The notes under the pieces were generated by a model. It did not search any database and was not told the origin of the DNA. It saw only the letters and a list, made by a program, of their open reading frames with translations. Shown here piece after piece: positions 1 through 50,341 of a stretch of DNA of 64,000 nucleotides. The stretch lies in contig CM059432.1 in the NCBI GenBank assembly GCA_030390025.1, positions 76,510,001 through 76,574,000 on the forward strand, written 5' to 3'. Source of the DNA: Squalus acanthias. Its lineage: Eukaryota. The position numbers and the translations under genes were made by a program. Every line of letters begins with the position of its first letter. Position 1 is the first letter of the stretch.

Positions 1-890
1 AAGGTGATTTAAATATGGGATTTTATTCCAAATATTGTTTGTGATGTTTTATTCAATTGTTGATGTTAACTGATTTCAATGTAGTCATTCTATACTTGCT
101 ATACGGGTTTTGTATAAAAAGCTAATATTAGAGTGAAATGTTCCGTGTTATTTTGCTACTGTAAAATCACAGACTTTTTACCCCATCAAGATAACTTGCT
201 GTATAATAGTTGCAATTCCACTGTTGTTAAATAATTAATAATGAGCTAAAGTACTGCACTCTTTTCTGGGTTTGAAAGGCCATTTGTTTAATTTTTGATC
301 CTCTCCAGTTTCTATCTATTGTTCTGGTCTGAAAATTTATTTCCAGCCAAACCATGTGTCATATGACAGACCATACTCTATCAATGGCTCTGAAAATAAA
401 ACTCCTTATTTAGATTGCAGAAAGTGCAGCCTACAAACCTTTAGCTGGTTAAGAAAATATTATAGCCCTGATCTAAACTTAAACCGTCAGAATGGAATTG
501 TTTGTCTTGCTTTTCTATAATGAACCTTTTTTTGATGTTAATCAATAACATGACTTTCTGATACTTTTACCTTCAGCTCTGTGAGATCTTGTCAATGAAA
601 TCATCACTCACTGTAGAAATGTCAGCATCTTACAGAATGCCCATGACGGAAAATAGTAACATAAAAGAACAAGGCATGAAAAGCAGGGAAGTGAAGAAAA
701 CAGTGACAATGGTTTTGATGAATTATTCTGTAATTAATCTGAACTGACTACAAAATCTGAAATTTTTCAAACATGTAGATCCTGCCAAACAGTAGCAGAT
801 GGAAGCCGTAAAATTTTCAGTATCCATTTTGGAAGGTAACCACAGTCATATGAGTGATATGGGATTAGTCTATCCAGCTCCACACTTGCA

Positions 891-15119: not shown

Positions 15120-17146
15120 ATGACTGCTGCAAGATCGAAGGCTGCTCCTAGATTTGATGCATACCTTGGCTGCAGTGTGTACCATCTACAAGATGCACTG
15201 CAGCAACTCGCCAAGGCTTCCTCGGCAGCACCTCCCAAACCCGCGACCTCTACCACCTAGAAGGACAAGGGCAGCAGGCGCATGGGAACACCACCACCTC
15301 CAAGTTCCCCTCCAAGTCACACACCATCCTGACTTGGAAGTATATCGCCGTTCCTTCATCGTCGCTGGGTCAAAATCCTGGAACTCCCTCCCTAACAGCA
15401 CTGTGGGAGTACCTTCACCTCACGGACTGCAGCGGTTCAAGAAGGCGGCTCACCACCACCTTCTCAAGGGCAATTAGGGATGGGCAATAAATGCTGGCCT
15501 TGCCAGCGACACCCACATCCCATGAAAACGAATAAAAAAAACTCCCTCCATTCTCTTGTGGAGGGAGTAAGAAGGCTCAGGGATATTCTGTTCCCTCTCG
15601 ATGGCCGAAGGAAGCCTCCTCAGCAGACAAAGGCAGCCTGGCTGCAAATTGCTGAGGAGGTAAGCTCAAGGTTGGTGTGCACACCCACCTGGGTGCAGTG
15701 CCGAAAAAGGTACAATGATCTGCTACGCTCAGCAAAAGTGAGTATCACATCACACTTACCTTCTATCTGCCTCCCATCTGTTCTCATCACCAGCACTCAG
15801 CATTGTCAACCTACTCCTCCACATCCCAACTTACCCTTACTTCCCTTGCACCCTTACCTATCCCTCTCTATGTACAGAATCACTTCACCATCCTACTATG
15901 CACCCCTCACACTTGTTCTCACTGTTATGCAATGACAATAACTAACAAGGCACAGGGAAGCACTTTGGTTTTGGCACCTCACTCCATCTTTGTCTCCCTC
16001 TGAGCTTCTATGTTATGGAATCTTTACACTCATTCCATCAATCTCACTGAAACTCTACTTTTGTCCCTCATTACAGGAAAAGAGAGCCCGCAATAAGAGG
16101 GAGAGAGCGAGGACAGGTGGAGGCCCACCATCACTCACAACTTTAACAAATGCTGAGGAGGCTGCTCTCGACATAGTCGGAGGTACAGAGGAGTTGGAAG
16201 TGGGGGATGGAGAGACGGGCACAGTCGAGTAAGCTGGTGACAGAATAGCTTTGCAACCCTCATTAAGATTTCATGAGTGACTGAAATGGCATCTGATGTT
16301 CATACAGATTGAGTTCTGATCATCTGCACAATAGGATGTTTCTGCAACCTAAATATCACATGTCTAACTCATGCCTTTACTCCCCCACAGGACAATCGAG
16401 AGCCCTCCTCCCCACTGTCCAGGAGGAAGAGTCAGACGACTCCTCAGAGGAACCTGCAGCCTCTGAGGGAGCAGCGTCACCAGAACTCAGCGCATCCAGC
16501 ACCAGCGCAGATACGCACACCTCGGTGGGTCCTTCGCGACATAGAGTAGTGTTATCACCTGGTGTATCACAGCTCACAAGTGAGCATCAGCAGATGGTGG
16601 AGACAGTGACAGCAGTGGAGAGTCCTCGTCGGAGGTTGCAGGATGCTCCCAGCTCTGCTCAGCTGCATGTAGACGCCGTGCCTCTGGGACCATCCAGAAA
16701 GGTAACTGCGAGTGTGCAGGGAATGGAGGAGTCCATCTCAAACATGAGCAATGTGGTGGTGCACTCAATGGCGAATGTAGGTGCCGCCATGGAAAGGATG
16801 GCAACCTCCATGGAGGACATAAATCGCCAGACTCAAATGAGCATGGTGACTCTTCTAAATAGATGGTCGGCTATGGAGGATAGATGAGCATCTATTGAGG
16901 AGAGGAACCAGAGATACATGGACATCCCCGTTATGAGGACTGTAAGTACAGAGACGGGTTCTCATGGTCCCACTGATGTGCAGCAAGGTGCTCTCCAGCC
17001 ACTTGCTAGCAGTGAAGTGCGGGTGACCCATGAGAGGGATGTTGGTGGTCATAAGCAAGGAAGTGTGGGCTCCTCTCCAAGCGCTCACACGACCATGCCA
17101 CAGCGGAGCCCCAGATGCCTCACCGAACTGGGATGGCCGTCTCAGC
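15120..17146 (+). pseudogene. Harbinger Myb/SANT-like DNA-binding protein gene, 3 exons, disrupted
   Basis: Exon 1 15120-15737 (MTAARSKAAPRF..AWLQIAEEV..TWVQCRKRYNDL, donor GTGAGT); exon 2 from 16077 (EKRARNKRERARTGGG); exon 3 from 16391. LINE insertion in exon 1 and premature stops. Confidence 0.85.
15160..15540 (+). mobile_element. 3' fragment of family-B CR1-group LINE
   Basis: Near-identical to 38810-39186; ends in GCTGGCCTTGCCAGC stem-loop and A-rich tail; splits Myb exon 1. Confidence 0.92.
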
Positions 17147-28611: not shown

Positions 28612-28990
28612 CTGCCATCTAGTGTCCATAGAGAGCCATCTAGTGTCCATAGAGAGCCATCTATCCTCCGTAGATACCCATCTATCCTCCATAGAAAGCA
28701 ATCTATCCTCCGTAGATACCCATCTAGTGTCCATAGATAGCCATCTATCCTCCGTAGATACCTATCTATCCTCCATAGAAAGCCATCTATCCTCCGTAGA
28801 TACCCATCTAGTGTCCATAGATAGCCATCTATCCTCCGTAGATACCCATCTAGTGTCCATAGATAGCCATCTATCCTCCGTAGATACCCATCTATTCTCC
28901 ATAGATAGCCATCTATCCTCCATAGAAAGCCATCTATTCTCCATAGATAGCCATCTATCCTCCATAGAAAGCCATCTATTCTCCATAGAG
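28612..28990. repeat. 21-bp coding minisatellite, about 18 units
   Basis: Unit like CCATCTATCCTCCATAGA(T/A/G)AG; minus strand reads S(M/T)(E/D)(D/N/T)RW(L/V). Confidence 0.95.
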
Positions 28991-29146: not shown

Positions 29147-31181
29147 TAGAAACATAGAAACATAGAAGATAGGAGCAGGAGTAGGCCATTCGGCCCCTCT
29201 AGCCTGCTCCGCCATTTAATGAGATCATGGCTGATCATCCAAATTCAGTACCCTGTCCCTGCTTTATCTCCATATCCCTTGATCCCTTTAGCCTTAAGAA
29301 ATATATCTAACTCCTTCTTGAATATATTTAATGAATTGGCCTCAACTGCCTTCTGTGGTAGAGAATTCCACAGGTTCACCACTCTCTGGGTGAAGAAATC
29401 CCTCCTCATCTCAGTCCTAAATGGCTTACCCCTTATCCTTAGACTGTGACACCTGGTTCTGGACTCCCCCGCCATCGGGAACATCCTTCCTGCATCTAGT
29501 CTGTCTAGTCCTGTTAGAATTTTATAGGTTTCAATGAGATCCCCTCTCATTCTTCTAAACTCTAGCGAATACAAGCCCAATCATCCCAATCTCTCTTCAT
29601 ACGTCATTCCTGCCAACCCAGGTATCAGTCTGGTGAATCTTCACTGCACTCCCTCCATGGCAAGAATATCCTTCCTCAGATAAGGTGACCAAAACTGCAC
29701 ACAATACTTAAGGTGTGGTCTCACCAAGGTCCTGTACAACTGCAGCAAGACATCCTTGCTCCTGTACTCGAATCCTCTCGCTATGAAAGCCAACATACCA
29801 TTTGCCTTCTTAACCGCCTGCTGCACCTGCATGCTTACCTTCAACGACTGGTGCACAAGGACTCCCAGGTCTCGCTGCACTTCCCCTTTTCCCAATCTAT
29901 TGCCATTCAGATAATAATCTGCCTTCCTGTTTTTGCCACCAAAGTGGATAACCTCGCATTTATCCACATTATACTGCATCTGCCATGCATCTGCCCAATC
30001 ACCCAACTTGTCCAAATCATACTGGAGTTTCTCTGCATCCTCCTCACAACACACATGCCTACCCAGCTTTGTGTTGTCTGCAAACTTGGAGATATTACAT
30101 CTAGTTCCCTCGTCTAGATCATTAATATATATTGTGAATAACTGGGGTCTTGGCACCGATCCCTGCGGTACCCCACTAGTCACTGCCTGCCACTCGGAAA
30201 AAGACCCGTTTATTCCAACTCTTTGCTTCCTGTCTGCCAACCAGTTCTCTATCCAAGTCAGTACCTTACCCCCAATCCCATGTGCTTTAACTTTGCATGC
30301 TAATCTCTTATGCGGGACCTTATCGAAAGCCTTCTGAAAGTCCAAATACACCACATCCACTGGTTCTCCCTTATCTATTCTACCAGTTACATCCTCAAAA
30401 AATTCCAGTAGATTAGTCAAGCACGATTTACCTTTTGTAAATGCATGTTGACTTTGTCCGATCCAGTCACTGTTTTCCAAGTGCTCTGCTATTGCATCTT
30501 TTATAATGGACTCTAGCATTTTCCCCACTACCGATGTCAGACTTACAGGGGTATAATTCCCCGTTTTCTCTCTCCCACCTTTTTTAAATAGTGGGGTTAC
30601 ATTAGCTACCCTCCAATCCATGGGAACTGTTCCAGAGTCTGTAGAATTTTGGAAGATGACCAGCAATGCATCTACTATTTCTCGGGCCATTTCCTTAAGT
30701 ACCCTAGGATGTAGATTATCAGGCCCTGGGGATTTATCGGCCTTCAATCCCGTCAATTTCCCTAACACCATTTCCCTACAAATACTGATTTCATTCAGTT
30801 CTTCCCTCTCATTAGACCCTATGTTCCCCGACATCTCTGGGAGGTTATTTGTGTCCTCCTTTGTGAAGACAGAACCAAAGTATGTATTTAATTGGTCTGC
30901 CATTTCTTTGTTCCCCATTATAAATTTCCCTGATTCTGACTGCAAGGGACCTACGCTTGACTACACCAATCTTTTTCTCTTCACATATCTATAGAAGCTT
31001 TTACAGTCAGTTTTTTATGTTCCCTGAAAGCTTACTCTCATACTCTATTTTCCCCCTCTTAATTAATCCCTTTATTCTCCTTTGCTGAATCCTAAACTGC
31101 TCCCAATCCTCAGGTTTGCTGCTTTTTCTGGCCAATTTATATGTCCTCTCCTTGGATCTTATGCTATCCCGAATTTCCCTT
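29147..31181 (-). mobile_element. CR1 LINE, 5'-truncated
   Basis: RT ORF 29641-30945 (YLDFQKAFDKV, GVPQGSV, KFADN), C-terminus 29245-29580, (TTTCTATG)n tail, GCA duplicated at both junctions. Confidence 0.95.
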
Positions 31182-32315
31182 GCAAAACCTGTCAGAGCCT
31201 CCTGCACTTCTTGCTACACCTCCAGGATCGCCCTCTTCTTGGATGGCCCCCGAGGCTCAGCGTCTGCATGCAGCTGAGCAGAGCTGGGAGTGTCCTGTGC
31301 CCTTCGACGAGCAGTCTCCACTGCTGTCTCTGTCACCACCATCTGCTCTTGCTCGGTTGTGATTTGTGAGACACCAGGTGACAACACTATTCTATCTCGC
31401 GAGGGACCCACCGAGGTGTGCGTTTCTGCTCTGGTGCTGGGTGCGCTTCTGTCTGGTGACGGTGCGCCCTCAGAGGTTGGAGGCTCCTCTGAGGAGTCGT
31501 CTTCCTCTTGTTCCTGGACAGTGGTGGAGGCCCTTGATGATTGTTAGTTGGTATAATTGCACTGGGATGAGGGTGAGTGTGAGGGGTGACTAGTAAGATG
31601 GGGATGTGATAATGTAGATAGAGAGAGAGGGATGGGTGGAGGTGCAAGTATGTTGGTGTGAGTAAGGATGTGCAGGAGAAGGGTTGGGAAAGCAGAGTGA
31701 TGGGGATGTGATGAGAGGCACAGCAGGATGAAGGTGAGTGTGGCTTTGGACTCATCTTTCCTGATCTAACAAGATCGTTGAAGTGTTTGCGGCACTGCGC
31801 CCAGGTCCTCCTGACGATATCCCTGCTATTCACATCCTCTGCTATTTGGAGCCAGGCTCCTTTGCTCTGCTGGCGAGGTCTCTTCCACGCTGCGTGCTCT
31901 GACTCCCTCCACAAGCATATGGAGCGAGTCATCGGAGAACCTAGCTGCCTCTGTACAGTCATCTCTGGTGGTGTGTGCAGCAGTGGAATTATGAAGTGCA
32001 CTGACTGCACACTCCCAGGTGAACCTTCAAATGCAATGTGGCCATGGCTCCTTTACGTATCCCAGCTGAAAACGCGTCATCAATGATGTCACCAGACCCG
32101 CACCTTTTAATTGGGCTGTGTAACGCGCAGGGCAGGCTTAATAGGCGGCATTAATGTAAAGTCGTTCTGTGGAGCAGGATGGAGCCAGCAATGGGCTCGC
32201 GACTCGCCATGCCGACCGCGCACACCAGACCCGCCCAGGTAAAGAAAATTCCAGCCATACAGTCAGCACAATTAGCCATCAATGGCAACTGGGCATCAGG
32301 AAAGTTTAAACATTG

Positions 32316-32587
32316 CCCTCAGTGTAATGCTTCCTGCCCTCAGTGTAATGCTCTCTGCCCTCAGTGTAATGCTCTCTGCCCTCAGTTTAATGCTCTCCGT
32401 ACTCTGCCCTCAGTGTAATGCTCACTGCCCTCAGTTTAATGCTGTCCGTACTCTGTCCTCAATGTGATGCTGTCTGTCCTGATTGTAATGCTCTCTGTAC
32501 TCTGCCCTCACTGTAATGCCCTCCGTACTCTGACCTCAGTGTAATGCTCTCTGTATTCTGCTCTCAGTGTAATGCCCTTTGCCCTCA
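32316..32587 (+). repeat. Minisatellite, left (diverged) part
   Basis: Units CCCTCAGTGTAATGCTCTCTG(TACTCTG), 21/28 bp. Confidence 0.9.
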
Positions 32588-32594
32588 GGAACAG

Positions 32595-32671
32595 TAGCAT
32601 AGTGGTAATGTCAATGAGCTAGTAATTCAGTAGGCCTGGACTAATGATCCAGAAACATGAGTTCAAAATCC
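32595..32671 (+). promoter_or_regulatory. Type-2 internal RNA polymerase III promoter (A and B box)
   Basis: A box TAGCATAGTGG (32595-32605) fits TRGCNNAGTGG; B box GTTCAAAATCC (32661-32671) has one extra A relative to GTTCRANNC. Confidence 0.8.
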
Positions 32672-34365
32672 CACCACGGCAGCTGGGGAATTTAAATTCA
32701 GTTAATTAAATAAATCTGGAATAAAAAGCTAGTATCAGTAATGGTAACCATGAAACTATCGGATTGTTGTAAAAACCAATCAGGTTCACTAATGTCCTGT
32801 AGGGAAGGAAATCTGCCGTCCTTACCTGGTCTGGCCTATATGAGACTCCAGACCCACAGCAATGTGGTTGACTCTTAAATGCCCGCTGAAATGGCCTGGC
32901 AAGCCACTCAGTTGTAACAAACCGCTACGAAACACAATAAGAAGAATGAAACCAAACGGACCACCCAGCATCGGCGTCGGCACCGGCTACAGACACGGCA
33001 ACGGCACACCCAGCCCACTCGACCCTGCAGAGTCCTCCTCACCAACATCTGGGGACTTGTGCCAAAATTGGGAGAGCTGTCCCACAGACTAGACAAGCAA
33101 CAGCCTGACATAATCATACTCACAGAATCATACCTTTCAGCCAATGTCCCAGACTCCTCCATTACCATCCCTGGGTATATCCTGTCCCACCGGCTGGACA
33201 GACCCACCAGGGGTGGCGGCACAGTGGGATACAGTCGGGAAGGAGTGGCCCTGGAGTCCTCAGGTCAAGCATGGGCAAGAAAACCTGCTGATTGCCACCT
33301 ACCGCCCTCCCTCAGCTGATGAATCAGTACTCCTCCACTTGCAAGGGCACAGGATGTACTTTGGGTGGAGACTTCAATGTCCATCACCAAGAGTGGCTCG
33401 GTGGCATCACGACTGACCGAGCTGGCCGAGTCCTGAAGGACATAATTGCCAGTCTGGGCCTGAGACAGGCGGTGAGAGAACCAACACGAGGGAAAAACCT
33501 ACTTGACCTCGTCCTCACCAATCTGCCTGTCGCAGATGCATCTGTCCATGACAGTATTGGTAGCAGTGATCACCGCACAGTCATTGTGGAGACGAAGTCC
33601 TGTCTTCACACTGAGGACACCCTCCATCATGTTGTGTGGCACTACCACCGTGCCTAATGGGATAGATTCAGAACAGATCTAGCAGCTCAAAGCTGGGCAT
33701 CCATGAGGCGCTGAGGGCCATCAGCAGCAGCAGAATTGTATTCCACCACAATCTGTAACCTCATGGCCCAGCATATCCCTCACTCTACCATTACCCTCAA
33801 GCCAGGGGACCAACCCTGGTTCAATAAGGAGTGTAGAAGAGCATGCCAGGACCAGCACCAGGTGTACCTAAAAATGAAGCTGCAACACAGGATTACATGC
33901 ATGCTAAAAAGCGGAAGCAGCATGCTATAGACAGGGCTAAGCGATCCCACAATCAACGAATCAGATCAAAGCTCTGCAGTCCTGCCACATCCAGTCGTGA
34001 ATGGTGGTGGACCATTAAACAACTAATGGGAGGAGGAGGCTCCAAGAATATCCCCATCCTCAATGACGGTGGAGCCCAGCACGTGTGCAAAAGACAAGGC
34101 TGAAGCGTTTGCAACCATCTTCAGCCAGAAGTGCTGAGTGGATGATCCAGAGCGGCCTCCTCCTGAGCTCCCCACCATCACAGAAACCAATCTTCAGGCA
34201 ATTTGATTCACTCCACGTGATATCAAGAAACGGCTGAGCGCACTGGATACAGCAAAGGCTATGGGCCCCGACAACATCCCGGCTATCATGCTGAAGACTT
34301 GTGCTCCAGAACTAGCTGTGCCTCTAGCCAAGCTGTTCCAGTACAGCTACAACACTGGCATCTAT

Positions 34366-37300
34366 GTGTGTGTGTGCTAGGCCGATGTCTCCAATTTCTT
34401 GGATCCTCTTGCCATTGGACCAAGAAATTGCTCTGTCAAGCCCATGTGGTAGCTGATGTGCAACGGCCACCCCACGTTAAAATAATTCACGCAAAGGCAT
34501 CTTCCACCCTTTTAAATGAAGTTTGGGACCTGGAACGTCAGGACCCTCATGGACAACCCGAACAGTGACAGACCAGAATGCTGTACTGCTATCGTTGCCC
34601 AGGAGCTCAGATGTTTCGACATAGACATCGCCGCCCTAAGCGAGACCCGGTGGGCAGGGGAAGGCCAGCTCAAGGAGCAAGGCGGTGGTTACACCTTCTT
34701 CTACAAAGGCAAACCTGAAGAAGAACACCGCCTCCATGGGGTAGGCTTCGCCATAAAAAATGAGCTAGTTGAACGTCTCAGAGACTCCCCTTGTGGAATA
34801 AATGTATGCCTCATGACTCTACGGCTCACCCTAGCCCGGAACCAGTGCGCTACAGTCATCAGTGCGTACGCCCCAATACTGGAAGCCACAGACGAGACCA
34901 AAGAGGAATTCTACTCCAGCCTCGAACAATCCCTGTCCCGAGTCCCAACAGGTGACAAACTGATCCTCCTTGGCGACTTCAACGCCAGAGTTGGAAAGGA
35001 CACAGACCTCTGGGGAGGTGTGATTGGCAGAGAGTGGGTAGGGAAAGTCAACTCCAACGGCACCCTCCTCCTGACGAAATGCTTAGAACATGGCCTTGTC
35101 ATAACCAACACCTTGTTCCGTCAGAGAGACAAGTAGAAGGCTTCATGGCAACACCCTCGCTCCAAGCACTGGCATCTGCTGGACTACGTCATCGTCCGAG
35201 CGAGGGACCGCAAGGACGTCCGCATCACCCGCGCCATAACAGGAGCTGATGACTGCTGGACAGACCACCGCCTAATCCGCTCTGTCATCTCCATCAACGT
35301 AGCCCCAAAACAGCGGCGGCAACAGAAGCAATGCCACAGGAAAATCAACGCTGGAGCACTCAAAGACCCTGCTAAGAAAGCCCTATTCAGCCTGTGCCTC
35401 ACAAACAACCTGACGACTCCCAGTGATGCAGAGACAGAGAGTGTCCACAGCGCCTGGTCTGCACTCAAGGCCTCCATAATCAGCACCTGTGAAGAGACGC
35501 CCGGTCACTCGACCAGGAAACGCCAAGACTGGTTCTATGAGAACAACTGGGAGATCCAGGAGCTAATAAGCTGCAAGTGCAAGGTATTCCTGATTTGGAA
35601 ACAGTAACAGAACTCGAGAGCAAGAAAGCAGCTCTACAGGCGCTTAAAGGCCGAAGTTCAACAAAAAACTTGCGACCTACAGAACAGATGGTGGGTGGAG
35701 AAAGTGCAGGAGATCCAGCAGCTAGCCGACAACCATGACGTGCGTGGATTCTTTAGCGCAGTCAAGACCACCTATGGCCCAAGCACCCAAGGTCCTACCC
35801 CACTGTGGGCCAAGAACGGAGAGGTACTCATCAAGGACAGAGAGGCAGTCATGCCCGCTGGAAGGAGCACTTAGAAGATCTCCTTAACCGAGACTCTGTC
35901 TTCGACGCAAGTGTCCTCAACTCCATCCCGCAGCATGCTACCCACCACCACCTCAGCACAACCCCAGCCCGGCATGTGGTTGAAAGGCCATCCGACAACT
36001 GAAGAACAACAAGGCCCCAGGAGCAGATGGAATCCCCGCCGAGGCGCTAAAACATGGCGGAGAAGCACTATTGGCATGAATACAAGAACTAATTTCACTT
36101 ATTTGGAAGGAGGAGAGCATGCCAGGGGATCTCAGAGACACTAATCGTGACCATCTTCAAGAAAGGTGACAAGTCCGATAGCGGTAATTAGAGAGGAGTC
36201 TCCCTGCTGTCTGCCATAGGGAAAGTCATCGCAAGAATCCTCCTCAATCGCCTTGTCCCAGTGGCTGAAAAGCTCCTCCCAGAGTCGCAATGTGGATTCC
36301 ACCCACTAAGGGGCACAATGGACATGATCTTCACCGCGCATCAACTACAAGAGAAATGCAGGGTACAGCACCAACCGCTGTACATGGCCTTCTTTGACCT
36401 CACAAAGGCCTTCAACACCATCAACCGTGAGGGATTATGGAGTGTACTCCTCAAATTCGGCTGCCCGCAGAAGTTTGTCACCATCCTCCGCCTGCTTCAT
36501 GACGACATGCAAGCCATGATTCTGACCAACGGATCCACCACAGACCCAATTCACGTATGGACCGGGGTCAAGCAAGGCTGTGTCATCGCACCAACGCTCT
36601 TCTCGATCTTCCTGGCTGCAATGCTCCATCTCACCCTCAGTAAGCTCTCCGCTGGAGTGGAGCTAATCTACAGAACAAACAGGCAACTGTTCAACCTCCG
36701 TCGCCTCCAGTCCAGATCCAAGGTCGTCCCATCCTCTGTCATCGAATTACAATATGCAGATGATGCTTGCATCTGCGCACACTCTGAGGTCAAACTCCAA
36801 ACCATTGTCAACAGCTTCACCGAAGCGTACAAGTGCATGGGCCTTACACTAAACATCCGTAAGACAAAGGTCCTCTACCAACCTGCCCCCCGATTATCAA
36901 AATCTATGACGAGGCCTTGGACAACATGTACCACTTTCCATACCTTGGGAGCCTACTGTCAACAAGGGCAGACGTCGATGACGAAGTCCAACACCGCCTT
37001 CAGTGTACCAGTGCAGCCTTCGGTCGCCTGAAGAAGAGAGTGTTTGAAGACCAGGACCTCAAACCCAGCACCAAGCTCATAGTCTACAGAACAGTAGTGA
37101 TACCCGCCCTCCTGTATGCTTCAGAGACATGGACCATGTACAGCAGGCACCTCAAAGCACTGGAGCGGTACCACCAACGCTGCCTCCGCAAGATCCTGCA
37201 AATCCATTGGCAGGATAGGCGCACCAACGTCAGTGTTCTCGCTCAGGCCAACATCCCCAGCATCGAAGCTTTGACCACGCTCAATCAACTCCGATGGATG

Positions 37301-37734
37301 GGCCACATCATCCGCATGCCCGATATGAAACTCCCAAAACAAGCGCTCTACTTGGAGCTCCGACACGACAAGAGAGCCGCAGGTGGGCAGAAGAAACGCT
37401 TCAAGGACACCCTCAAAGCCTCCTTGAAAAAGTGCAACATCCCCACCGACACCTGAGAATCCCTGGCCCAAGACTGCACAAAGTGGAGGAGAAGCATCCG
37501 GGAAGGCGCCGAACACCTCGAGTCTCTTCACCGGGAGCAAGCGGAAGCCAAGCACAAACAGCGGAAGGAGTGCATGTCAACCCAAGCACCCCATCCACCC
37601 GCCCCTTCAACCACCGTCTGCCCCACCTATGACAGAGACTGTAGGTCCCGCATTGGACTCATCAGTCACCTGAGAACTCATTTTCAGTGTGGAAGCAAGT
37701 CATCCTCGGTTCCGAGGGACTGCCTAAGAAGAAG
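34366..37734 (+). mobile_element. Full-length RTE-clade LINE (decayed)
   Basis: MKFGTWNVRTL APE start at 34516, RT with GVKQGC and QYADD, C-terminal C..C..H..H-like motif, (AAG)n tail, ATCTAT target duplication (34360-65 / 37735-40). Confidence 0.95.
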
Positions 37735-39186
37735 ATCTATCCGACAATGTAGAAAACTGCCCAGGTATGTCCTGTCCACAAAAAGCAGGACAAATCCAAT
37801 CCGGCCAATTATCACCCAATCAGTCTACTCTCAATCATCAGCAAAGTGATGGAAGGTGTCATCGAGAGTGCTAAAAAGCAGCACTTAGTCACAAATATCC
37901 TGCTCACTGATGCCCAGTTTGGGTTCCGCCAAGACCACTCGGCTCCCGACCTCCTTACAGCCTTGGTCCAAACATGGACATAGGAGCTGAATTCCAGAGG
38001 TGAGGTGAGAGTGACTGCCCTTGACATCAAGGCAACATTTGACCGAATATGGCATCAAGGAGTCCTTGTAAAACTGAAGTCAATGGGAATCAGGGGGAAA
38101 TCTCTCCACTGGCTGGAGTCATACCTAGCATAAAGGAAGATGATTGTGGTGGTTGAAGGTCAATCATCACAGCCCCAGGACATTGCTGCAGGAGTTCCTC
38201 AGGGCAGTGTCCTAGGCCCAACCATCTTCAGCTGCTTCATCAATGACCTTCCCTCCAACATAAGGTCAGAAATGGGGATGTTCGCTGATGACTGCACAGT
38301 GTTCAGTGCCATTCGCAACTCCTCAGATAATGTAGCAGTCCAAAGCCCACATGCAACAAGACCTGGACGACGTTCAGGCTTGGGCTGATAAGTGGCAGGT
38401 AACATTCGCGCTACAGAAGTGCCAGGCAATGACTATCTCCAACAAGCGAGAGTCTTACCATCACCCCTTGACATTCAACGGCATTACCATCGCCAAATCC
38501 CCCACCATCAACATCCTGGAGGTCACCATTGACTAGAAACTTAACTGGACCAGCCACATAAATACTGTGGCAACAAGAGCAGGTCAGAGGCTAGGTATTC
38601 TGCAGTGAGTGTCTCACCTCCTGACTCCCCAAAGCCTTTCCACCATCTACAAGGCACAAGCCAGGGGTGTGATGGAATACTCTCCACTTGCCTGGATGAG
38701 TGCATTTCAAACAACACTCAAGAAGCTCGACACCATCCTTGACAAAGCAGCCCACTTGATTGGCACCCCATTCACCACCTTAAACATTCACTCCCTCCAC
38801 CACCAGCTTACCGTGGCTGCAGTGTGTACCATCTACAAGATGCACTGCAGCAACTCGCCAAGGCTTCTTTGGCAACACCACCCAAACCCACGACCTCTTC
38901 CACCTAGAAGGACAAGGGCAGCAGGCACATGGGAACACCACCACCTCCAAGTTCCCTCCAAGTCACATTCTATCCTGACTTAGAAGTATAGCGCTGATCC
39001 TTCATCGTCGCTGGGTCAAAATCCTGGAACTCCCTCCCTAACGGCATTGTGGGAGTAACTTCACCACACGGACTGCAGTGGTTCAAGAAGACGGCTCACT
39101 GCCACCTTCTCAAGGGCAACTAGGGATGGGCAATAAATGCTGGCCTTGCCAGCGATGCCCACATCCCATAAACAAATATTAAAAAA

Positions 39187-40441
39187 GTGTAAAACTCTCT
39201 ATATTCAGCCCTCAGTGTAATGCTCTCTGCCCTCAGTGTAATGCTCTCCGTACTCTGTCCTCCGTGTAAAGCTCTCTGCTCTCAGTGTAATGCTGTCCAT
39301 ACTCTACCCTTAGTGTAAAGCTGTCCTTGCTGTGCCTTCAGTGTAATGCTCTCTGCCGTCAATGTAATGCTTCTGCCCTCAGTGTAATGCTCTCCATACT
39401 CTGCCCTCAGTGTAATGCTCTCTGTACTCTGCCCTCAGTGTAATGCTCTCTGTACTCTGCCCTCAGTGTAATGCTCTCTGTACTCTGCCCTCAGTGTAAT
39501 GCTCTCTGCCCTCAGTGTAATGCTCTCTGTACTCTGCCCTCAGTGTAATGCTCTCTGTACTCTGCCCTCAGTGTAATGCTCTCTGTACTCTGCCCTCAGT
39601 GTAATGCTCTCTGTACTCTGCCCTCAGTGTAATGCTCTCTGTACTCTGCCCTCAGTGTAATGCTCTCTGTACTCTGCCCTCAGTGTAATGCTCTCTGTAC
39701 TCTGCCCTCAGTGTAATGCTCTCTGTACTCTGCCCTCAGTGTAATGCTCTCTGTACTCTGCCCTCAGTGTAATGCTCTCTGTACTCTGCCCCCAGTGTAA
39801 TGCTCTCTGCCCTCAGTGTAATGCTCTCTGTACTCTGCCCTCAGTGTAATGCTCTCTGTACTCTGCCCTCAGTGTAATGCTCTCTGTACTCTGCCCTCAG
39901 TGTAATGCTCTCTGTACTCTGCCCTCAGTGTAATGCTCTCTGCCCTCAGTGTAATGCTCTCTGTACTCTGCCCTCAGTGTAATGCTCTCTGTACTCTGCC
40001 CTCAGTGTAATGCTCTCTGTACTCTGCCCTCAGTGTAATGCTCTCTGTACTCTGCCCTCAGTGTAATGCTCTCTGTACTCTGCCCTCAGTGTAATGCTCT
40101 CTGTACTCTGCCCTCAGTGTAATGCTCTCTGTACTCTGCCCCCAGTGTAATGCTCTCTGCCCTCAGTGTAATGCTCTCTGTACTCTGCCCCCAATGTAAT
40201 GCTCTCTGCCCTCAATGTAATGCTCTCTGTACTCTGCCCTCAGTGTAATGCTCTCTGCCCTCAGTGTAATGCTCTCTGCCCTCAGTGTAATGCTCTCTGT
40301 ACTCTGCCCTCAGTGTAATGCTCTCTGCCCTCAGTGTAATGCTCTCTGCCCTCAGTGTAATGCTCTCTGTACTCTGCCCTCAGTGTAATGCTCTCTGCCC
40401 TCAGTGTAATGCTCTCTGTCCTCAGTGTAATGCTCTCTGTA
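39187..40441 (+). repeat. Minisatellite, right (homogeneous) part
   Basis: Dozens of near-identical 28-bp CCCTCAGTGTAATGCTCTCTGTACTCTG units mixed with 21-bp variants. Confidence 0.97.
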
Positions 40442-43400
40442 CAATCAACCCCTGCAATGATACATTGTAACTTGTTAAATATACTATTTATGGTTACAGT
40501 TAAATAATGAAAGACTTGCTAAAATGTTTTGAAAATTCCCTCTGTTTTAGTAGAGATATAATGCATATGTTTAAACATTTAATATAAGCTTTCAGCTTTT
40601 TCTGCAAATAAAAAAATTTGCGCAGTCATCAGTTAAAAATGGAAGCTTGAGAACAAAATAGATTGTAGCCATCACTGAAGGACTATCCTCAGCTGCAGAA
40701 AATAAACAAACCTCTGTGTATAAAAGCAAAGTAACACATTCTAAAATAATTCTCAAATGCTGCACTCACCCAATGTGCTAAAATTGGATTCAATATTATT
40801 TGTACCTTTTGAAGGAGGCATATATTGTTGATATAATATATAAACAATATAAAAAATGTAAACTATATATACTAAGCTGGTTTGTATAAAGACTTTGCCT
40901 CAATGCTTACTGATGGATCATCATACAAGGAAGCTGAGAGCTTTAACAACATTAAGCATGGTATCATGGGAGTCTCTTGTGTGCGGTTTTATTTGCAGCA
41001 GTCAGGTTAATGAGCCCACCAGCCCACTTGATGTTGAGGGCCTCATAACAAAGAATTCTCTCATTAAACACTCCCTGGCATTGCGTTCGGAAACAAAGTG
41101 ACATTCAAAGTGTTGAATGCCTTTGTGCTAGTTGTTCCTGCCAGGCTGCAGAGCCAGTCATGGCATCGATCCTACAATGTCCTGGCAGCCATCCAGTGAC
41201 ACGCCGGCCTCTCCAGTGTGCAGCGGCATTTGCCAATCTAAGCAGCATCGGTATACAAACAAGCATGGCACACGACGAGCCTGGCGAGCAGCCAATATGG
41301 AGCAGCTGAGTGGGCTGACTTCCTTCTAATTTGTCTGAAATCAAGTCCTCCCCGTTCATTGAATTCTCTTCTTGCCGATTTATTTTCACTTCCACAATGA
41401 AGACAGAAATAGCATTTATTTCCTATCTGGATTTCTAACATTTTGTTCATTAAAACTGCTAGAAACAAAATATTTCCCAGAGTACTACCAAAATCTCTAC
41501 TGCAAGACAAACTTTTCATTAGTGTGACCCCTAAGAGTGTTATCAGCTAACTAGCAGGTGTGTCCCTTTATCACAGTCTTACACACCAAAGCATGACGGG
41601 TAAACCCTTAACTTGTGATTCAGCTCAAGCTTGCATTATTCATGAGATTCAGTGTTTGCAATTCAGGACCAATTTACTAGGAAAGAAATAATTTCACTGA
41701 GGGTTACAAATCCTGCCTTCTTAATAGGAATGTAATGCAGAACTTGAAACATTTTTTTTAAACTTCCAAATCAAATCTTAGTTATTGCACTATAGCCAAG
41801 AGACAACATAATTATTTATCTTAAACTTGGCTTATGAGTAGCAAACTAAACAATCACAAATTCACATAATTTTGCAATTAAAATTTTGTTATATATACCA
41901 ATTGGAAAAAGTTACTATACCATCCATATATATCTGGTAACCTTTGTATTAATAGTCGTAGTATCATCATTAGGGTTAATTTAACCCACATTGTGGCTTC
42001 ACAAAAGTAACTAGTGCAATTTTTATTCAACTGCTCCTGCTTCCTTCAACAACAAACACAGTAAGTGTTGATTTTTTTGGCAATCATTTTATTAATTGTC
42101 ACAAGAATGCCTCCTACAATATTGTATGTTACAATTTTGAAGATTTCCAGTAGTCCCTACACAACCTATGTTTTATTTAACAGGACAATTCTTAATATTT
42201 ATCCATACAAACAGCTTGATATTGAGAGCTCATTTGCACATAGTACTACATTAATAGTATTTGCTGAAGACATTAATTTATCAGAATAACGATGGCAACT
42301 GTGCTCAATCCTGACTAATTCGTTGAATCTCTCATTTCACTTACATTATTGAAAGATGTTCGCCATCATTTTACATCCTCAGATATTATATGCTGAAGTG
42401 AATTATTCTGAATGCTAACATAAATTTAAAAGAAAATTCAAAGCACGTACCAGCATTGAACCAATTGGTAATTCTGAGTTTGCCACATTCTTAGGCCTGG
42501 GGTTACAAGGGTTAACGATTTTTCATGCAGGAAGCCTGCATCTTCCAACAGCTATTTATGGAATCTGCAGAAACAGCTGAACTGACTGCAATGATGTCAT
42601 ACACTGATGGAATGTTCTGTTCCGCAGCACGTTCACAAGCCGCCTGGGTCTCCTGAAGACTTTGCATGCAGTCTGAGCAGCAACACATTATGAAGCTGAG
42701 GCACTAATTCAGCAGCACCAATCAATATCACACTGCTGACTCTCTCCTGATCTCTCACCCCAACAGCATACTGCCGGGAAAGCTCTGTGCCTCACTGACA
42801 GTGAGAGAAAGCTGCCTCGATACAGCTGCTGATTCCACAATCTATCAAGGTTCATTTTTTTTGTGACTAAAACCAGAGAACTGCCGCAATGAAAACAATT
42901 TTGGACGGTCAGTTCCTCGCTCCACTGGCTGTGTATTTGCTTGGCTTCAGCTGTCCACTTGCAGGCCATTTTATACATTTCATTGATTACATAACCTATT
43001 AGTCTGTCTCTTGTACTGGTTCCTTTAAATTATCTGTAGGAAAAGTAGGAACTTCCTCTCCCCTCACATATATTTACTGAGCCTTTGGGTATTTTCACTG
43101 TCCTTAAAAGAACACAGTTGCCTAGCAACTATTATGGTTACCATGGTGAATCCATGTGTAAGCAGCTGCTGCAATCAGCATTAACACCAGGCTCGCAGGC
43201 AAATCATACCGATACATAAGGGAATGTGTAGAGGGTGATTGCCTATATAATGTTACTCATTAAACAGACATTCCACAGTTTATATTTCTCCAGTACAATT
43301 ATATCAATATCATTCTAACACAAAAACAACAGTACTATATTCTTTGCCCATATAGGCTACATTTTAAAATCATTCAAATCAAATGAGCCTAACATGTGTC

Positions 43401-44368: not shown

Positions 44369-45138
44369 TCAGTTTTTAACCACCATCACCATACAGATGC
44401 ATATCACCAAAGCTGTGTCCATCAATAGAGCAGGCCCCTTCCCAATCCATACACAAAACCTGTTCTCAGATATTCCTAGAATACTACAGCACAGAGGGAG
44501 GCCATTTGGCTGATGGAGTCTGCGCTGGCTCTTTCGAAAAGCAATCCTGTTTGTCCCACTCCCCCGCTCTTTCCCCATATCCCTGTAAAATTTTCTCCTA
44601 CAAATATTTATACAATTCCCTTTTGAAAGCTACTATTGAATCTGTTTCCACCACCCTGTCAAGCAGTCCATTCCAAATCCTAACTACTCGCTGCCTAAAA
44701 TTTTTTTCCTCATGTCGCCTCTGCTTCTTTTGTCAATCAACTTAAATCTGTGTTCTCTGGTTATCGACCCTTCAGCCATTGGAAACAGCTTTTCTTTATT
44801 TACTCTATTTAAACCCTTCATGATTTTAAACACCTCAATCAAATCTCCTCTTAGCCTTCTCTGCTCTAAGGAGAACAACCCCAGCTTCTTTTATTTTTGT
44901 TCATTCCTGGGATGTGGACGTTGCTGGCAAGGCCAGCATTTATTGCCCATCCCTAATTGCCCTTGAGAAGGTGGTGGTGAGCCACCTTCTTGAACCACTG
45001 CAGTTCGTGTGGTGAAGGTACTCCCACAGTGCTGTTAGGGAGGGAGCTCCAGGATTTTGACCCAGTGACGAGGAAAGGAACGCCGTCATATTTCCAAGTC
45101 AGGATGGTGTGTAACTTGGAGGGGAACTTACAAGTGAT

Positions 45139-47016
45139 AGACAGGCTAAGTGAGTGGGCAAGACAGGCTAAGTGAGTGGGCAAGAACATGGCAAATGGAA
45201 TATAATGTGGAGAAATGTGAAGTTATCCACTTTGGTAGGAAAAATAGAAAAGCAGAGGATTTTTTAAATGTTGAGAGATTGGGAAATGTTGGTGTTCAGA
45301 GGGACCTGGGTGTCCTTGTACATGAATCACTGAAAGTTAACATGTAGGTACAGCAAGCAAATAGGAAAGCAAATGGCATGTTGGCTTTTATAACAAGAGG
45401 ATTTGAGTATAAGAGTAAAGACGTCTTACTGCAATTATATAGGGCCCTGGTGAGACCACACCTGGAGTATTGTGTATAGTTTTGGTCTCCTTACCTAAAG
45501 AAGGATAGACTTGCCATAGAGGGAGTGTAATGAAGGTTCACCAGACTGGTTTCTGGGATGGGTGGATTGTCCTATGAGGAGAGATTGTGTAGACTAGGTC
45601 TATATTTTTTTCTTAACGCTTATGGGATGTGGGCGTCGCTGTCAAGGCCAGCATTTATTGCCCATCCTAAGTTGCCCTTGAGAAGGTGGTGTTGAGCCAC
45701 CTTCTTGAACCGCTGCAGTCTGTGTGGTGAAGGTACTCCCACAGTGCTGTTAGGGAGGGAGTTCCAGGATTTTGACCCAGTGACGATCAATGATCGGCGA
45801 TATACTTCCAAGTCAGGATGGTGTGTGACTTGGAGGGGAACTTGGAGGTGGTGGTGTTCCCATGTGTCTGCTGCCCTTGTCCTTCTAGGTGGAAGAGGTC
45901 GCAGGTTTGGGAGGTGCTGCCGAAGAAGCCTTGGCGAGTTGCTGCAGTGCATCTTGTAGATGGTACACACTGCAGCCACGGTACGCCGGTGGTGGAGGGA
46001 GTGAATGTTTAAGGTGGTGGATGGGGTGCCGATCAAATGGGCTGCTTTGTCCTGGATGGTGTCGAGCTTCTTGAGTGTTGTTGGAGCTGCACTCATCCAG
46101 GCAAGTGGAGAGTATTCCATCACACTCCTTACTTGTGCCTTGTAGATGGTGGAAAGGCTTTGGGGAGTCAGGAGGTGAGACACTCACCGCAGAATACCTA
46201 GCCTCTGACCTGCTCTTGTTGCCACAGTATTTATGTGGCTGGTCCAGTTAAGATTCTGGTCAATGGTGATACCCCAGGATGTTGATGGTGGGGGATTCGG
46301 CGATGGTAATGCCGTTGAGTGTCAAGGGGAGGTGGTTAGACTCTCGCTTGTTGGAGATAGTCATTGCCTGGCACTTCTGTGGTGTGAATGTTACCTGCCA
46401 CTTATCAGCCCAAGCCTGAACGTCATCCAGGTCTTGTTGCACGCGGGCATGGACTGCTTCATTATCTGAGGAGTTGTGACTGGCGCTGAACAATGTGCAG
46501 TCATCAGCCAACATCCCCATTTCTGACCTTATGTTGGAGGGAAGGTCATTGATGAAGCAACTGAAGATGGTTGGGCCGAGGACACTGCCCTGTATTCTCT
46601 AGAGTTTAGAAGAATGAGAGGTGATCTCATTGAAACATACAAAATTCTTATAGGGCTTGAGAGGGTAGATGCAGGGAGGATATTTCCCCTGACTGGGGAG
46701 TCTAGAACCAGGGGTCACAGTCTCAGAATAGGGGGTCGGCCATTTAAGACTGAGATGAGGAGAAATTTCTTCACTCGGAGGGTGGTGAATCTTTGGAATT
46801 CTGTACCCCAGAGGGCTGTGGAGGCTCAGTCATTGAGCATATTCAAGACAGAGATCAATAGATTTTTGAATATTAAGGGAATCAAGGGATATGGGGATAG
46901 TGCAGGAAAGTGGAGATGAGGTAGAGATCAGCCATGATCTTATTGAATGGCGGAGCAGGCTCAAAGGGTCAAATGGCCTACTCCTGCTCCTATTTCTTAT
47001 GTTCTTATGTTCTTAT
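45139..47016 (+). mobile_element. CR1 family A 3' part, split by a family-B LINE
   Basis: WQMEYNVEKCEVIHFG..; MRGDLIETYKIL..WNS; (GTTCTTAT)n tail. Confidence 0.92.
45607..46592 (-). mobile_element. Family-B LINE 3' fragment
   Basis: ORF 45620-46183 (STIYKAQVRSVMEYSPLAW), 3' stem-loop, TATT duplicated. Confidence 0.92.
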
Positions 47017-49004
47017 GTGATGGTGTCCCCATGCGCCTGCTGCCCTTGTCCTTCTTGGAAATAAAAGTCGTGGGTTTGGGAGGTACTGTTGAAGAAGCCT
47101 TGGTGAGTTACTGCAGTGTATCTTGTAGATGGTACACACTGCTGCCACGGTGCGCTGGTGGTGGAGGGAGTGAATGTTCATAGTGGTGGATGGGGTGCCA
47201 TTTAAGCGGGCTGATTTGTCCTGGATGGTGTCGAGCTTCTTGAGTGTTGTTGGAGCTGCACTCATCCAGGCAAGTGAAGAGTATTTCATCACACTCCTGA
47301 CTTGTGCCTTGTAGATGGTGGAAAGGCTTTGGGGAGTCAGGAGGTGAGACACTCACTACAGAATACCTAGCCTCTGACCTGCTCTTGTTGCCACAGTATT
47401 TATGTGGCTGGTCCAGTTAAGTTTTTGGTCAATGATGACCTCCAGGATGTTGATGGTGGGGGATTCGGCGATGGCAATGCCGTTGAACGTCTAGGGGAGG
47501 TGGTTAGACTCTCGCTTGTTGGAGATAGTCATTGCCTGGCACTTGTGTGGCGCGAATGTTACCTGCCAGTTATCAGCCTAAGTCTGAATGTCGTCCAGGT
47601 TTTGCTGCATGCGGGCATGAATTGCTTCATTATCTGAGGGGCTGTGAATGGAACTAAACACTGTGCAATCATCAGCGAACATCCCCACTTCTAACCTTAT
47701 GATGGAGGGAAGGTCAATGATGAAGCAGCTGAAGATGATTGAGCCTAGGACACTGCCCTGAGGAACTCCTGCAGCGATATCCTGGGACTGTGATGATTGA
47801 CCTCCAACAACCATCTTCCTTTATGCTAGGTATGACTGCAGCCAGTGGAGAACTTTCCCCCTGATTCCCATTGACTTCAATTTTACTTGATGCCAAACTT
47901 GGTCAAATGCTGCCTTGATATCAAGGGCAGTCACTCTCACCTCACCTCTGGAATTCAGCTCTTTTGTCCATGTTTGGACCATGGCTGTAATGAGGTCTGG
48001 AGCTGAGTAGTCCTGGCGGAACCCAAACTGAGCATCAGTGAGCAGGTTATTGGTGAGTAAGTGCCTCTAGATAGCACTGTCGACTACACCTTCCATTACT
48101 TTGCTGATGATTGAGAGTAGACTGATGGAGTGGTAATTGCCTGGATTGGATTTGTCCTGCTTTTTGTGGACAGGACATACCTGGGCAGTTTTCCACATTG
48201 TCGGGTAGATGCCAGTGTTGTAGCTGTACTGGAATAGCTTGGCTAGAGACGCAGCTAGTTCTGGAGCACAAGTCTTCAGCACAATGGCCGGGATGTTGTC
48301 AGGGCCCATAGCCTTTGATGTATCCAGTGCGCTCAGCCGTTTCTTGATATCACGTGGAGTGAATCGAATTGGCTGAAGACTGGCTGCTGTGATGGTGGGG
48401 ACCTCAGGAGGAGGCCGATATGGATCATCCACTCAGCACTTCTGGCTGAAGATGGTTGCAAACGCTTCAGCCTTGTCTTTTCCACTCACTTTCTGGGCGC
48501 CGCCATCATTGAGGATGTGGATCTTCATGGAGCTTCCTCCTCCCATTAGTTGTTTAATGGTCCACCACCATTCACAACTGGCTGTGACAGGACTGCAGAG
48601 CTTTGATCTGATCCATTGATTGTGGGATTGCTTAGCTCTGTCTATAGCATGCTGATTCTGCTGTTTAGCATGCATGTAGTCCTATGTTGCAGCTTCCCCA
48701 GGTTGGCACCTCATTTTTAGGTACGCCTGGTGCTGCTCCTATCATGCTCTTCCTGAACTCCTCATTGACCTAGGGTTTTTCCCCTGGCTTGATGGTAATG
48801 GTAGAGTGAGAGATATGCCGCGCCATGAGATTACAGATTTTGGTGGAATACAATTCTGCTGCTACTGATGGCCCACAGCGCCTCATGGATGCCCAGTTTT
48901 GAGCTGCTAGATCTGTTCTGAATCTATCCCATTCTCCAGTCTATCCATGTAACTGTAATCTCCATCCCTGGAACCATTCTAGTAGTCATTTGTGACTTTG
49001 ATTA

Positions 49005-49206: not shown

Positions 49207-50341
49207 AATGTTGGTGTTCAGAGAGATTTAGGTGTCCAAGTACAAGAAACACAGAGTAAGCATGCAGGTACAGCAAGCAATTAGGAAGGTAACTGGCATG
49301 TTGGCCTTTATTACTAGAGGGTTGGAGTACAAGTGTAAGAAGGGTACGGTAGCATAGTGGTTATGTTACTGGATTAGTAACCCAGAGGCTGGGACTAATA
49401 ATCCAGAGACATGAGTTTAAATCCCACCACGGCAGCTGGGGAATTTAACTTCAGTTAATTAAATAAATTTGGAATTAAAAAGCTGGTATCACTAATGGCA
49501 ACTACCGGATTGTTGGAAAAGCCCAACTGGTTTACTAATGTCCTTTAGGGAAAGAAATCTGGCGTCCTTACCTGGTTTGGCCTATATGTGACTCCAGACC
49601 CACAGCAATGTGGTTGACTCTTAACTGCCCTCTGAAATGGCCTAGCAAGCCACTCAGTTGTAACAAATCGCTATGACAAAGCACTGTGGAACTACATTCA
49701 CCACAAGTACTATAGCTGACCACCACCTTCTCAAGGGAAATTAGGGATAGGCAATAAATACTGGCCTAGCCAGCGATGCCCACATCTTGTGAGTGAATAA
49801 ATTTAAAAAAGAGACTGTGCACAGTTTTGGTTTCCATACCTAAGGAAGAATATACTTGCCTTAGATGCAACAAATGTTCACTAGATTAATTCCTGGGATG
49901 AGAGGGTTGTTCCTCTGAGGAGAGATTGAGTAGATTGGGCCTATACTCTCTGGAGTTTAGAAGAATGAGAGGTGATTTCATTGAAACATTTAAGATTCTG
50001 AGGGGGATTGACAGGATAAATGCTGAGAGGTTGTTTCGCTTGGCTGGAGAGTCTAGAGTTAGGGGGCATAGTCTCAGGATAAGGGGTCGGTCTTTTAAGA
50101 CTGAGATGAGGAGGAATTTCTTCACTCGGAGGGTTGTGAATCTGTGGATGCTCAATTGTCAAGTATATTGAAGACTGAGATAGATAGATTTTTGGACTCT
50201 AGAGGAATCAAGGGATATGGAGATTGGGCAGGAAAGTGGAGTTGAGGTCGAAGATCAGCCATGATTTTATTGAATGGCGGAGCAGGCTCGAGGGGCCGTA
50301 TGGCCTACTCCTGCGCCTAATTCTTATGTTCTTATATTCTT
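49207..50341 (+). mobile_element. CR1 3' fragment containing a SINE
   Basis: ORF 49926-50171 (GLYSLEFRRMRGD), 3' UTR matching 891-980, TTCTTATGTTCTTA tail. Confidence 0.9.
49342..49810 (+). mobile_element. tRNA-derived SINE sharing both ends with the family-B LINE
   Basis: A box 49350-49360, B box 49415-49423; 49343-49676 matches 32588-32930; 49680-49810 matches 39040-39186. Confidence 0.92.

What the first reader, a model, noticed from the sequence alone, without database searches (positions are those of the whole stretch)
32588..39186. tRNA-headed, ORF1-less LINE: candidate RNA polymerase III-driven autonomous retrotransposon
Seen: the element begins with A and B boxes, has about 340 bp of SINE-like leader, and reaches the first APE motif (LTNIWGL, about 33038) only about 100 bp later, leaving no room for ORF1. 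APE, RT and the 3' tail follow. Removing it rejoins one minisatellite unit (GCCCTCAG|TGTAA), so head and body inserted as one piece. Known: CR1-group LINEs normally use Pol II and usually have ORF1; tRNA heads define non-autonomous SINEs. Inference: a protein-coding LINE that adopted a SINE promoter. I cannot check whether this is already described; the tail resembles CR1-Zenon-type elements from memory only.
Basis: partly seen in the sequence, partly recalled or inferred. Interest (0 to 1): 0.85.

Follow-up and report, generated by a model that had tools for sequence, protein, structure and literature searches.

The report
Protein-coding LINE with a tRNA promoter
This is a decayed copy of an abundant 3.3-kb jumping gene that encodes its own copying enzyme but starts with a tRNA-type promoter and has lost almost every T-rich stop signal of RNA polymerase III, so it was probably made by the polymerase thought to serve only non-coding SINEs.

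Summary
Real, and a family, not a one-off. The head-to-ORF junction has 836 exact pattern matches in the genome. All 16 of 28 body-picked copies that reach the leader carry the head; no other 5' end appeared. The head is tRNA-derived with a duplicated anticodon arm. One 973-codon APE-RT frame follows, with no AUG before APE, under purifying selection in source lineages (pN/pS 0.26 shared, 1.07 private). Five-base windows with four or more T number 1 against 20 expected; A, C and G are normal. The genome's own CR1 and 49 relatives are not so depleted; its RTE is partly depleted under one null. Best reading (0.68): an autonomous, Pol III-transcribed LINE that also sheds SINE-sized derivatives. 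No transcript evidence was obtained. Lack of ORF1 is probably ancestral in this lineage. Ten literature searches found no description; Repbase and Dfam were not checkable. This scan reported the same family four times before, elsewhere in this genome.

The parts
32588..39186 (+). Whole insertion: decayed full-length copy of the tRNA-headed LINE (about 3.2 kb) with a nested RTE LINE
32588..32680 (+). tRNA-derived head (anticodon loop reads as Thr-AGT in many copies); A box 32595-32605, B box 32661-32671 (one extra A in this copy)
   Evidence: box consensus recalled
32615..32652 (+). Tandemly duplicated anticodon arm (32615-32630 and 32636-32652); older relatives have a single arm
32681..32914 (+). 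Non-coding leader body, shared with SINE-sized derivatives; no Deu or Meta core motif found in it
32915..33037 (+). In-frame stop (32915-32917), then a 40-codon basic extension with no in-frame AUG; near-cognate ACG at 32927-32929 is the candidate start (inference); the AUG at 32946 is out of frame
33038..33600 (+). APE endonuclease domain (two small deletions in this copy)
34366..37734 (+). Nested RTE-type LINE, a separate family, flanked by a 6-bp duplication at 34360-34365 and 37735-37740
37741..39123 (+). Rest of the host ORF: reverse transcriptase (FADD at 38281-38292) and C-terminal part, stop at 39121-39123
39124..39186 (+). Short 3' UTR and A tail, shared with the SINE-sized derivatives
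32314..32587 (.). Minisatellite, left flank
39187..40442 (.). Minisatellite, right flank
49342..49810 (+). SINE-sized derivative of the same family: head to nt 342 joined to the 3' end

Best explanation
An autonomous, single-ORF LINE of the wider CR1 group whose 5' end is a SINE-type head. SHOWN: head, leader, APE-RT frame and tail moved as one 3.3-kb unit many times; the ORF was kept under selection; the sense strand is nearly free of T-rich windows. INFERRED: TFIIIC binds the internal A and B boxes and Pol III transcribes the whole element from about its first base, stopping at the first T run beyond the A tail. The uncapped RNA is translated without a cap from a non-AUG codon (best guess: the ACG three codons after the in-frame stop). 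The protein binds the 3' tail in cis and inserts the copy by target-primed reverse transcription. Each full-length copy carries its promoter with it. Internal deletions that keep head and tail give SINEs that use the same enzyme. The head most likely came by a template switch from a tRNA-derived SINE onto an already ORF1-less LINE, replacing its 5' UTR and its AUG.
For: Family: 836 exact head-to-ORF junction matches, 0 for the reversed control; 39 of 39 other head-picked copies run into the body, and many are 3.2-3.3 kb with unrelated flanks. One 5' end: 18 of 49 junction-picked copies begin at nt 1-4, the other 31 are truncated inside the leader; 16 of 28 body-picked copies reach the leader and all have the head. 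ORF selection over 113 copies: pN/pS 1.07 for private changes, 0.42 at 10-20% and 0.26 at 20% or more; 21 of 43 variants shared by at least 10% are synonymous, against 24% expected, P = 0.0003. Terminator signature: no run of 4 T in 3311 nt; 4-of-5-T windows 1 vs 20 expected, 0 of 1000 shuffles as low, while A, C, G are 76/78, 94/92, 43/38; in the ORF 1 vs 16.9 when the protein is held fixed; TTT is the most depleted trinucleotide. Controls: own CR1 ORF2 47 vs 41.7, own RTE 13 vs 11.1, lowest ratio among 49 relatives 0.64 against 0.06 here; 0 of 34 relatives with enough upstream DNA have an A+B box pair. Contigs of two other organism labels bridge the junction (X9 record 31, X10 record 8). Pol III-made Alu RNA needs no ORF1p, whereas Pol II-made Alu RNA does (PMC2666806, abstract).
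Against: No direct transcript evidence. The absence of plain TTTT is only weakly significant alone: P = 0.02 by base shuffle, 0.12-0.14 when the element's own codons are shuffled. The genome's RTE also has only one TTTT and is depleted under the same-protein null (4-of-5-T 13 vs 27.8, P = 0.003), so some T-run avoidance occurs without a tRNA head. Most relatives used as controls are more T-rich and come from other hosts. No AUG and no unusually stable leader fold (z = -1.3) leave translation unexplained. No intact copy was seen (longest natural frame 549 aa) and full-length copies are mostly 3-4% from the majority sequence, so the family may be extinct here.
Confidence: 0.68

Rival explanations
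1. Split labour: Pol III makes the RNA that gets copied, but the protein comes from a capped Pol II read-through transcript of the same source loci.
For: Explains the T-window depletion and ORF selection without translation of uncapped RNA.
Against: A capped transcript would still meet nine AUGs in the first 360 nt, none opening the long frame. Purifying selection is easiest to explain if the protein acts on its own RNA (inference).
Confidence: 0.14
2. Ordinary Pol II LINE: the SINE head is a captured 5' UTR that acts as a Pol II promoter or passenger, and T-poverty has another cause (composition, avoidance of U-rich RNA signals).
For: 5' UTR swapping is common in LINEs (established knowledge). 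The co-resident RTE is also nearly TTTT-free. RTE-1_DAn and relatives are said to hold a tRNA-like sequence (PMC5786205).
Against: The depletion is T-specific and about 16- to 20-fold, against none by base shuffle in RTE and CR1. A and B boxes and the tRNA 5' end are kept across old and young forms.
Confidence: 0.12
3. A giant non-autonomous SINE that carries a LINE body as cargo and is moved by another LINE.
For: No AUG for APE; no intact copy found.
Against: Shared variants in the ORF are under purifying selection; the majority frame is open for 973 codons; no headless master was found.
Confidence: 0.05
4. One-off chimera or chance adjacency of a SINE and a truncated LINE.
For: None left.
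Against: 836 exact junction matches; independent flanks.
Confidence: 0.01

Closest known systems
Single-ORF CR1-group LINEs of invertebrates (Zenon / CR1-Zenon type)
   Same: One APE-RT ORF of about 970 aa with a short basic N-terminal extension; top homologs 40-45% identical on 3.3-3.7-kb contigs. In a quick RT tree the family sits in a 49-row group (SH-aLRT 87) that also holds lepidopteran and crustacean proteins, apart from the genome's own CR1. Zenon-1_Hm has its ORF at 172-3333 (PMC4016481).
   Different: The relatives' database proteins nearly all start at a Met before APE, show no A+B boxes upstream (0 of 34) and no T-window depletion. No protein named Zenon was in the tree.
tRNA-derived SINEs (SINE2) with a LINE-type tail
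   Same: tRNA head with A and B boxes, fixed 5' end, body, LINE tail, A tail; the family's short forms are such SINEs.
   Different: The long form encodes APE-RT under selection. PMC5786205 states that SINEs cannot encode a protein and are Pol III products while LINEs are Pol II products.
Bipartite non-autonomous LINEs and SINEs derived from them (Kojima 2018, PMC5786205)
   Same: Short elements made of the 5' and 3' ends of a LINE by internal deletion.
   Different: There the small-RNA head is added after deletion and only RTE, Ingi, Vingi and R2 are listed as sources. Here the autonomous element already has the head, so one deletion yields a SINE.
RTE-1_DAn and relatives
   Same: LINEs noted to contain a tRNA-like sequence (one sentence in PMC5786205).
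   Different: RTE clade; position and role of that sequence are not given; a search for the name found only that paper.
SacSINE1 / Deu-SINEs and MetaSINEs
   Same: tRNA-headed SINEs of fishes; MetaSINE heads are most like tRNA-Thr (PMC4824008), as this head appears to be.
   Different: Deu and Meta core motifs taken from the paper's bivalve sequences do not match the leader; SacSINE1 has an L2 tail (PMC5499810).

Membership tests
Autonomous APE-type non-LTR retrotransposon (LINE) | APE and RT in one long ORF | tested here: met
   Pfam PF14529, PF03372, PF00078; 973-codon majority frame
Autonomous APE-type non-LTR retrotransposon (LINE) | Dispersed copies, fixed 3' end, variable 5' truncation | tested here: met
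Autonomous APE-type non-LTR retrotransposon (LINE) | ORF under purifying selection in source elements | tested here: met
   pN/pS 1.07 private, 0.26 shared at 20% or more; P = 0.0003
Autonomous APE-type non-LTR retrotransposon (LINE) | Target site duplication | tested here: inconclusive
   None at this copy; 6 of 13 full-length copies share 5 bp or more across their ends, 15% in mismatched pairs, with the largest of 500 shuffles reaching the observed value
Autonomous APE-type non-LTR retrotransposon (LINE) | Pol II transcription, capped mRNA, AUG start | not testable with these tools
   No in-frame AUG before APE; polymerase not testable
CR1 clade proper (two ORFs) | ORF1 upstream of ORF2 | tested here: not met
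   APE begins at nt 450 of the element; no other 5' end in 28 body-picked copies
CR1 clade proper (two ORFs) | RT groups with vertebrate CR1 | tested here: not met
   30% identity to the genome's CR1 ORF2, separate branch in a quick tree
Zenon / CR1-Zenon | RT groups with named Zenon elements | tested here: inconclusive
   Same broad group as unnamed lepidopteran RT proteins (38-40% identity), SH-aLRT 87, quick tree only; no named reference
Zenon / CR1-Zenon | Single ORF | tested here: met
   Zenon ORF positions in PMC4016481
SINE2 (tRNA-derived SINE) | tRNA-derived head with A and B boxes | tested here: met
   RF00005 32.9 bits on older single-arm head, 22.3 bits with 22-nt insert on a full-length copy
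SINE2 (tRNA-derived SINE) | Short and non-coding | tested here: not met
   3.3 kb with a selected ORF; met only by the short derivatives
SINE2 (tRNA-derived SINE) | No internal Pol III terminator | tested here: met
SINE2 (tRNA-derived SINE) | Transcribed by Pol III | not testable with these tools
   Needs ChIP or 5'-end chemistry
Deu-SINE (SacSINE1) | Deu domain in the body | tested here: inconclusive
   A 14-nt core from bivalve Deu sequences has no match in the leader at 3 mismatches; the SacSINE1 consensus itself was not available
MetaSINE | 66-bp Meta domain after the head | tested here: inconclusive
   A 13-nt core has no match in the leader at 2 mismatches and printed bivalve sequences look unlike it; full consensus is in a figure not held

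The most novel reading that the evidence does not exclude
An autonomous retrotransposon transcribed by RNA polymerase III: a 3.3-kb uncapped RNA, purged of T-rich terminators, that is translated from a non-AUG codon into its own APE-RT, needs no ORF1, and gives rise to new SINE families by single internal deletions. It would be a living link between LINEs and SINEs and a natural Pol III mRNA.
Probability: 0.5. Interest if true: 0.9.

Novelty: new variant of a known kind. Interest (0 to 1): 0.78.

Why it matters
The split between Pol II-made coding LINEs and Pol III-made non-coding SINEs is treated as a rule (PMC5786205). A successful family that breaks it makes three old questions testable in one construct: whether an uncapped Pol III RNA can be a natural mRNA for a 110-kDa enzyme, whether the polymerase rather than the sequence sets the need for ORF1p, and how SINEs come to share a tail with their LINE. 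A compact self-promoting 3.3-kb element would also interest people who build RNA-based gene-insertion tools.

Tried and rejected
ARAGORN on the window found no tRNA and Rfam on 32400-33200 only a chance snoRNA hit: explained by decay and the duplicated arm. ARAGORN at a lowered threshold called tRNA-Thr(AGT) at many heads but also many chance tRNAs, so the Thr label is soft. A genome tRNA search (63 matches) gave Lys and Cys genes in the 16 loci checked, so the donor tRNA was not identified. Leader folding: z = -1.3, no sign of a special structure. Mutations that would create TTTT are as frequent among copies as other changes to T (1.2% each, 37 sites), as expected after insertion; the test has no power for source elements. 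T runs at the 3' tail in 20 of 84 long copies against 10 of 84 in the flank: not taken as an encoded terminator. The out-of-frame AUG at element nt 358 as a regulatory uORF: lost in 10 of 101 copies and in an older form, so doubtful. One-off chimera: rejected. Deu or Meta identity of the leader: no support. Four leader motifs were not found in the supplements of PMC7245038; one leader motif found two unrelated plant papers. The careful tree did not finish; the quick tree is used. In one search one of the 12 truncated copies (L039) was cut at the wrong place, so only 11 were tested for a shared upstream sequence. Structure prediction was not run, since APE-RT is a known fold.

Full report
Observation. 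The sequence bears out the ends (32588, 39186), the A box (32595-32605), the B box (32661-32671, with one extra A in this copy) and the first APE motif at 33038. The element sits in a minisatellite and its removal rejoins one unit without a duplication. The span is two elements, however. Pfam finds two APE and two RT regions. The inner pair, 34366-37734, is an RTE-type LINE with many copies of its own and a 6-bp duplication. The host is about 3.2 kb and decayed.

It is a family. The 401-bp junction has 6439 first-look candidates; the 39 other scored hits all span it at 93-94%, with unrelated 5' flanks. An exact pattern across the junction matches 836 places and its reversed control none. All 39 other head-picked copies continue into the body and many reach the tail at 3.2-3.3 kb. 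Picking copies by the body alone is the fairer test: 16 of 28 reach the leader and all 16 carry the head; the other 12 stop at nt 341-894. Of those 12, 11 were tested for a shared upstream sequence and only one duplicated pair shared any. Of 49 junction-picked copies, 18 begin at nt 1-4. Public runs with eight organism labels hold a fifth or more of the words (one may be the source), and contigs of two labels bridge the junction.

The head. It is tRNA-derived. A full-length copy aligns to RF00005 with a 22-nt insert (22.3 bits, under the cut-off), and an older single-arm relative passes the cut-off at 32.9 bits. The insert is a tandem copy of the anticodon arm. One older single-arm copy continues about 70 nt into the start of the coding region, which suggests the head-ORF link predates the duplication. 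The leader matches neither a Deu nor a Meta core motif, so the SacSINE1 label in earlier scan notes is not supported, though the SacSINE1 consensus could not be seen.

The ORF. A majority sequence of 23 copies is 3311 nt with one 973-codon frame whose first Met is about 286 codons in. APE therefore has no AUG. A stop precedes the frame, and a near-cognate ACG three codons later is my guess for the start. Across 113 distinct copies, private changes are neutral (pN/pS 1.07) while shared ones fall to 0.58, 0.42 and 0.26 with rising frequency (P = 0.0003). The source elements, all headed as far as sampled, needed their protein. Closest homologs are single 960-1050-aa ORFs at 40-45%, whose database proteins nearly all start at a Met ahead of APE. 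A quick tree puts the family with these and with lepidopteran and crustacean proteins, away from the genome's CR1. So lacking ORF1 is probably ancestral; the new traits are the head and the lost AUG.

The Pol III signature. Pol III stops at runs of T on the sense strand (established knowledge). The family has no TTTT in 3311 nt. Alone that is weak: P = 0.02 by base shuffle and 0.12-0.14 with its own codons, and the RTE has only one. The wider test is strong. Five-base windows with four or more T number 1 against 20 expected, with 0 of 1000 shuffles as low, while A, C and G match expectation. In the ORF the count is 1 against 15.5 by base shuffle and 16.9 with the protein held fixed. The genome's CR1 gives 47 against 41.7, its RTE 13 against 11.1, and 49 metagenome relatives never fall below a ratio of 0.64. 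Against this reading, the RTE is depleted about two-fold under the fixed-protein null (13 against 27.8), and most relatives are more T-rich. TTT is the most depleted of 64 trinucleotides and Phe is 1.8% against 4.2% in homologs.

Short forms. 276 exact matches join the leader directly to the tail, and the 100 listed show several recurring breakpoints. Some keep sequence found further inside the long form on one or both sides, as at window 49342-49810 and L279 and L282; these most likely arose by deletion from the long form. Others could descend from an older SINE, so the order of the first event is not settled.

Mechanism and odds. Best reading (0.68): internal Pol III promoter, full-length uncapped RNA, cap-independent non-AUG translation, cis retrotransposition, SINEs by deletion. 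Structure, copy number, selection and T depletion are shown; polymerase, start codon and cis action are inferred. It fits the report that Pol III-made Alu RNA needs no ORF1p (PMC2666806, abstract only). Rivals: protein from a separate capped transcript (0.14), a Pol II LINE with a captured head (0.12), a non-autonomous giant SINE (0.05).

Literature. Ten searches showed no paper describing a tRNA-headed coding LINE of this kind; most listed papers were seen only as listings, subscription journals are missing, and Repbase and Dfam could not be searched, so the consensus may already be deposited under some name. [quoted passage not shown] That the host looks like a cartilaginous fish is recalled from its repeats and from earlier scan notes, not tested.

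Earlier scan findings. Four notes describe the same family elsewhere in this genome, two of them with the missing TTTT. They are not independent support. Each of my tests was run here, and the T-run observation came before I read them.

Verdict. A real and unusual family: new variant of a known kind, interest 0.78. If Pol III transcription and translation are shown, 0.9.

Noticed in passing
window 34366-37734 (+): Nested RTE-type LINE of an abundant family (about 3.4 kb, single ORF with its own AUG); its majority ORF is also nearly free of TTTT.
   Followed up: partly
window 47017-48933 (-), 45617-46592 (-), 44894-45129 (-), 15159-15539 (+): Four more 5'-truncated or broken pieces of the same tRNA-headed family in this window.
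   Followed up: partly
window 49342-49810 (+): SINE-sized head-plus-tail derivative with its own breakpoints.
   Followed up: yes
L276, L286-L306: An older related SINE family (70-85% identity) with a single anticodon arm and the same leader and tail; about 6000 first-look candidates, which include younger forms.
   Followed up: partly
L064-L099 5' flanks: Many full-length copies have AC (or its CpG decay) just before the first G, so the true 5' end may be two bases earlier.
   Followed up: partly
3' tails of 84 long copies: The short A tail often reads as a T run followed by A (20 of 84); cause unknown.
   Followed up: partly
L255-L274: A young CR1 family (99% identity between copies) with open ORF2 frames of up to 934 aa; used as control.
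   Followed up: partly
window 29314-30948 (-): A CR1-type RT fragment that groups with the genome's young CR1.
   Followed up: partly
window 31387-32052 (-): A 221-codon frame with a stretch that looks like a Myb/SANT DNA-binding domain, as in Harbinger-type transposons (recalled likeness).
   Followed up: no
window 28614-28989: 21/42-bp minisatellite, about 18 copies.
   Followed up: no
runs X10 and X12: In these organism labels the head-to-tail short form is common (47 and 53 contigs with that loose end) and contig depth at the head far exceeds depth just inside the ORF.
   Followed up: no
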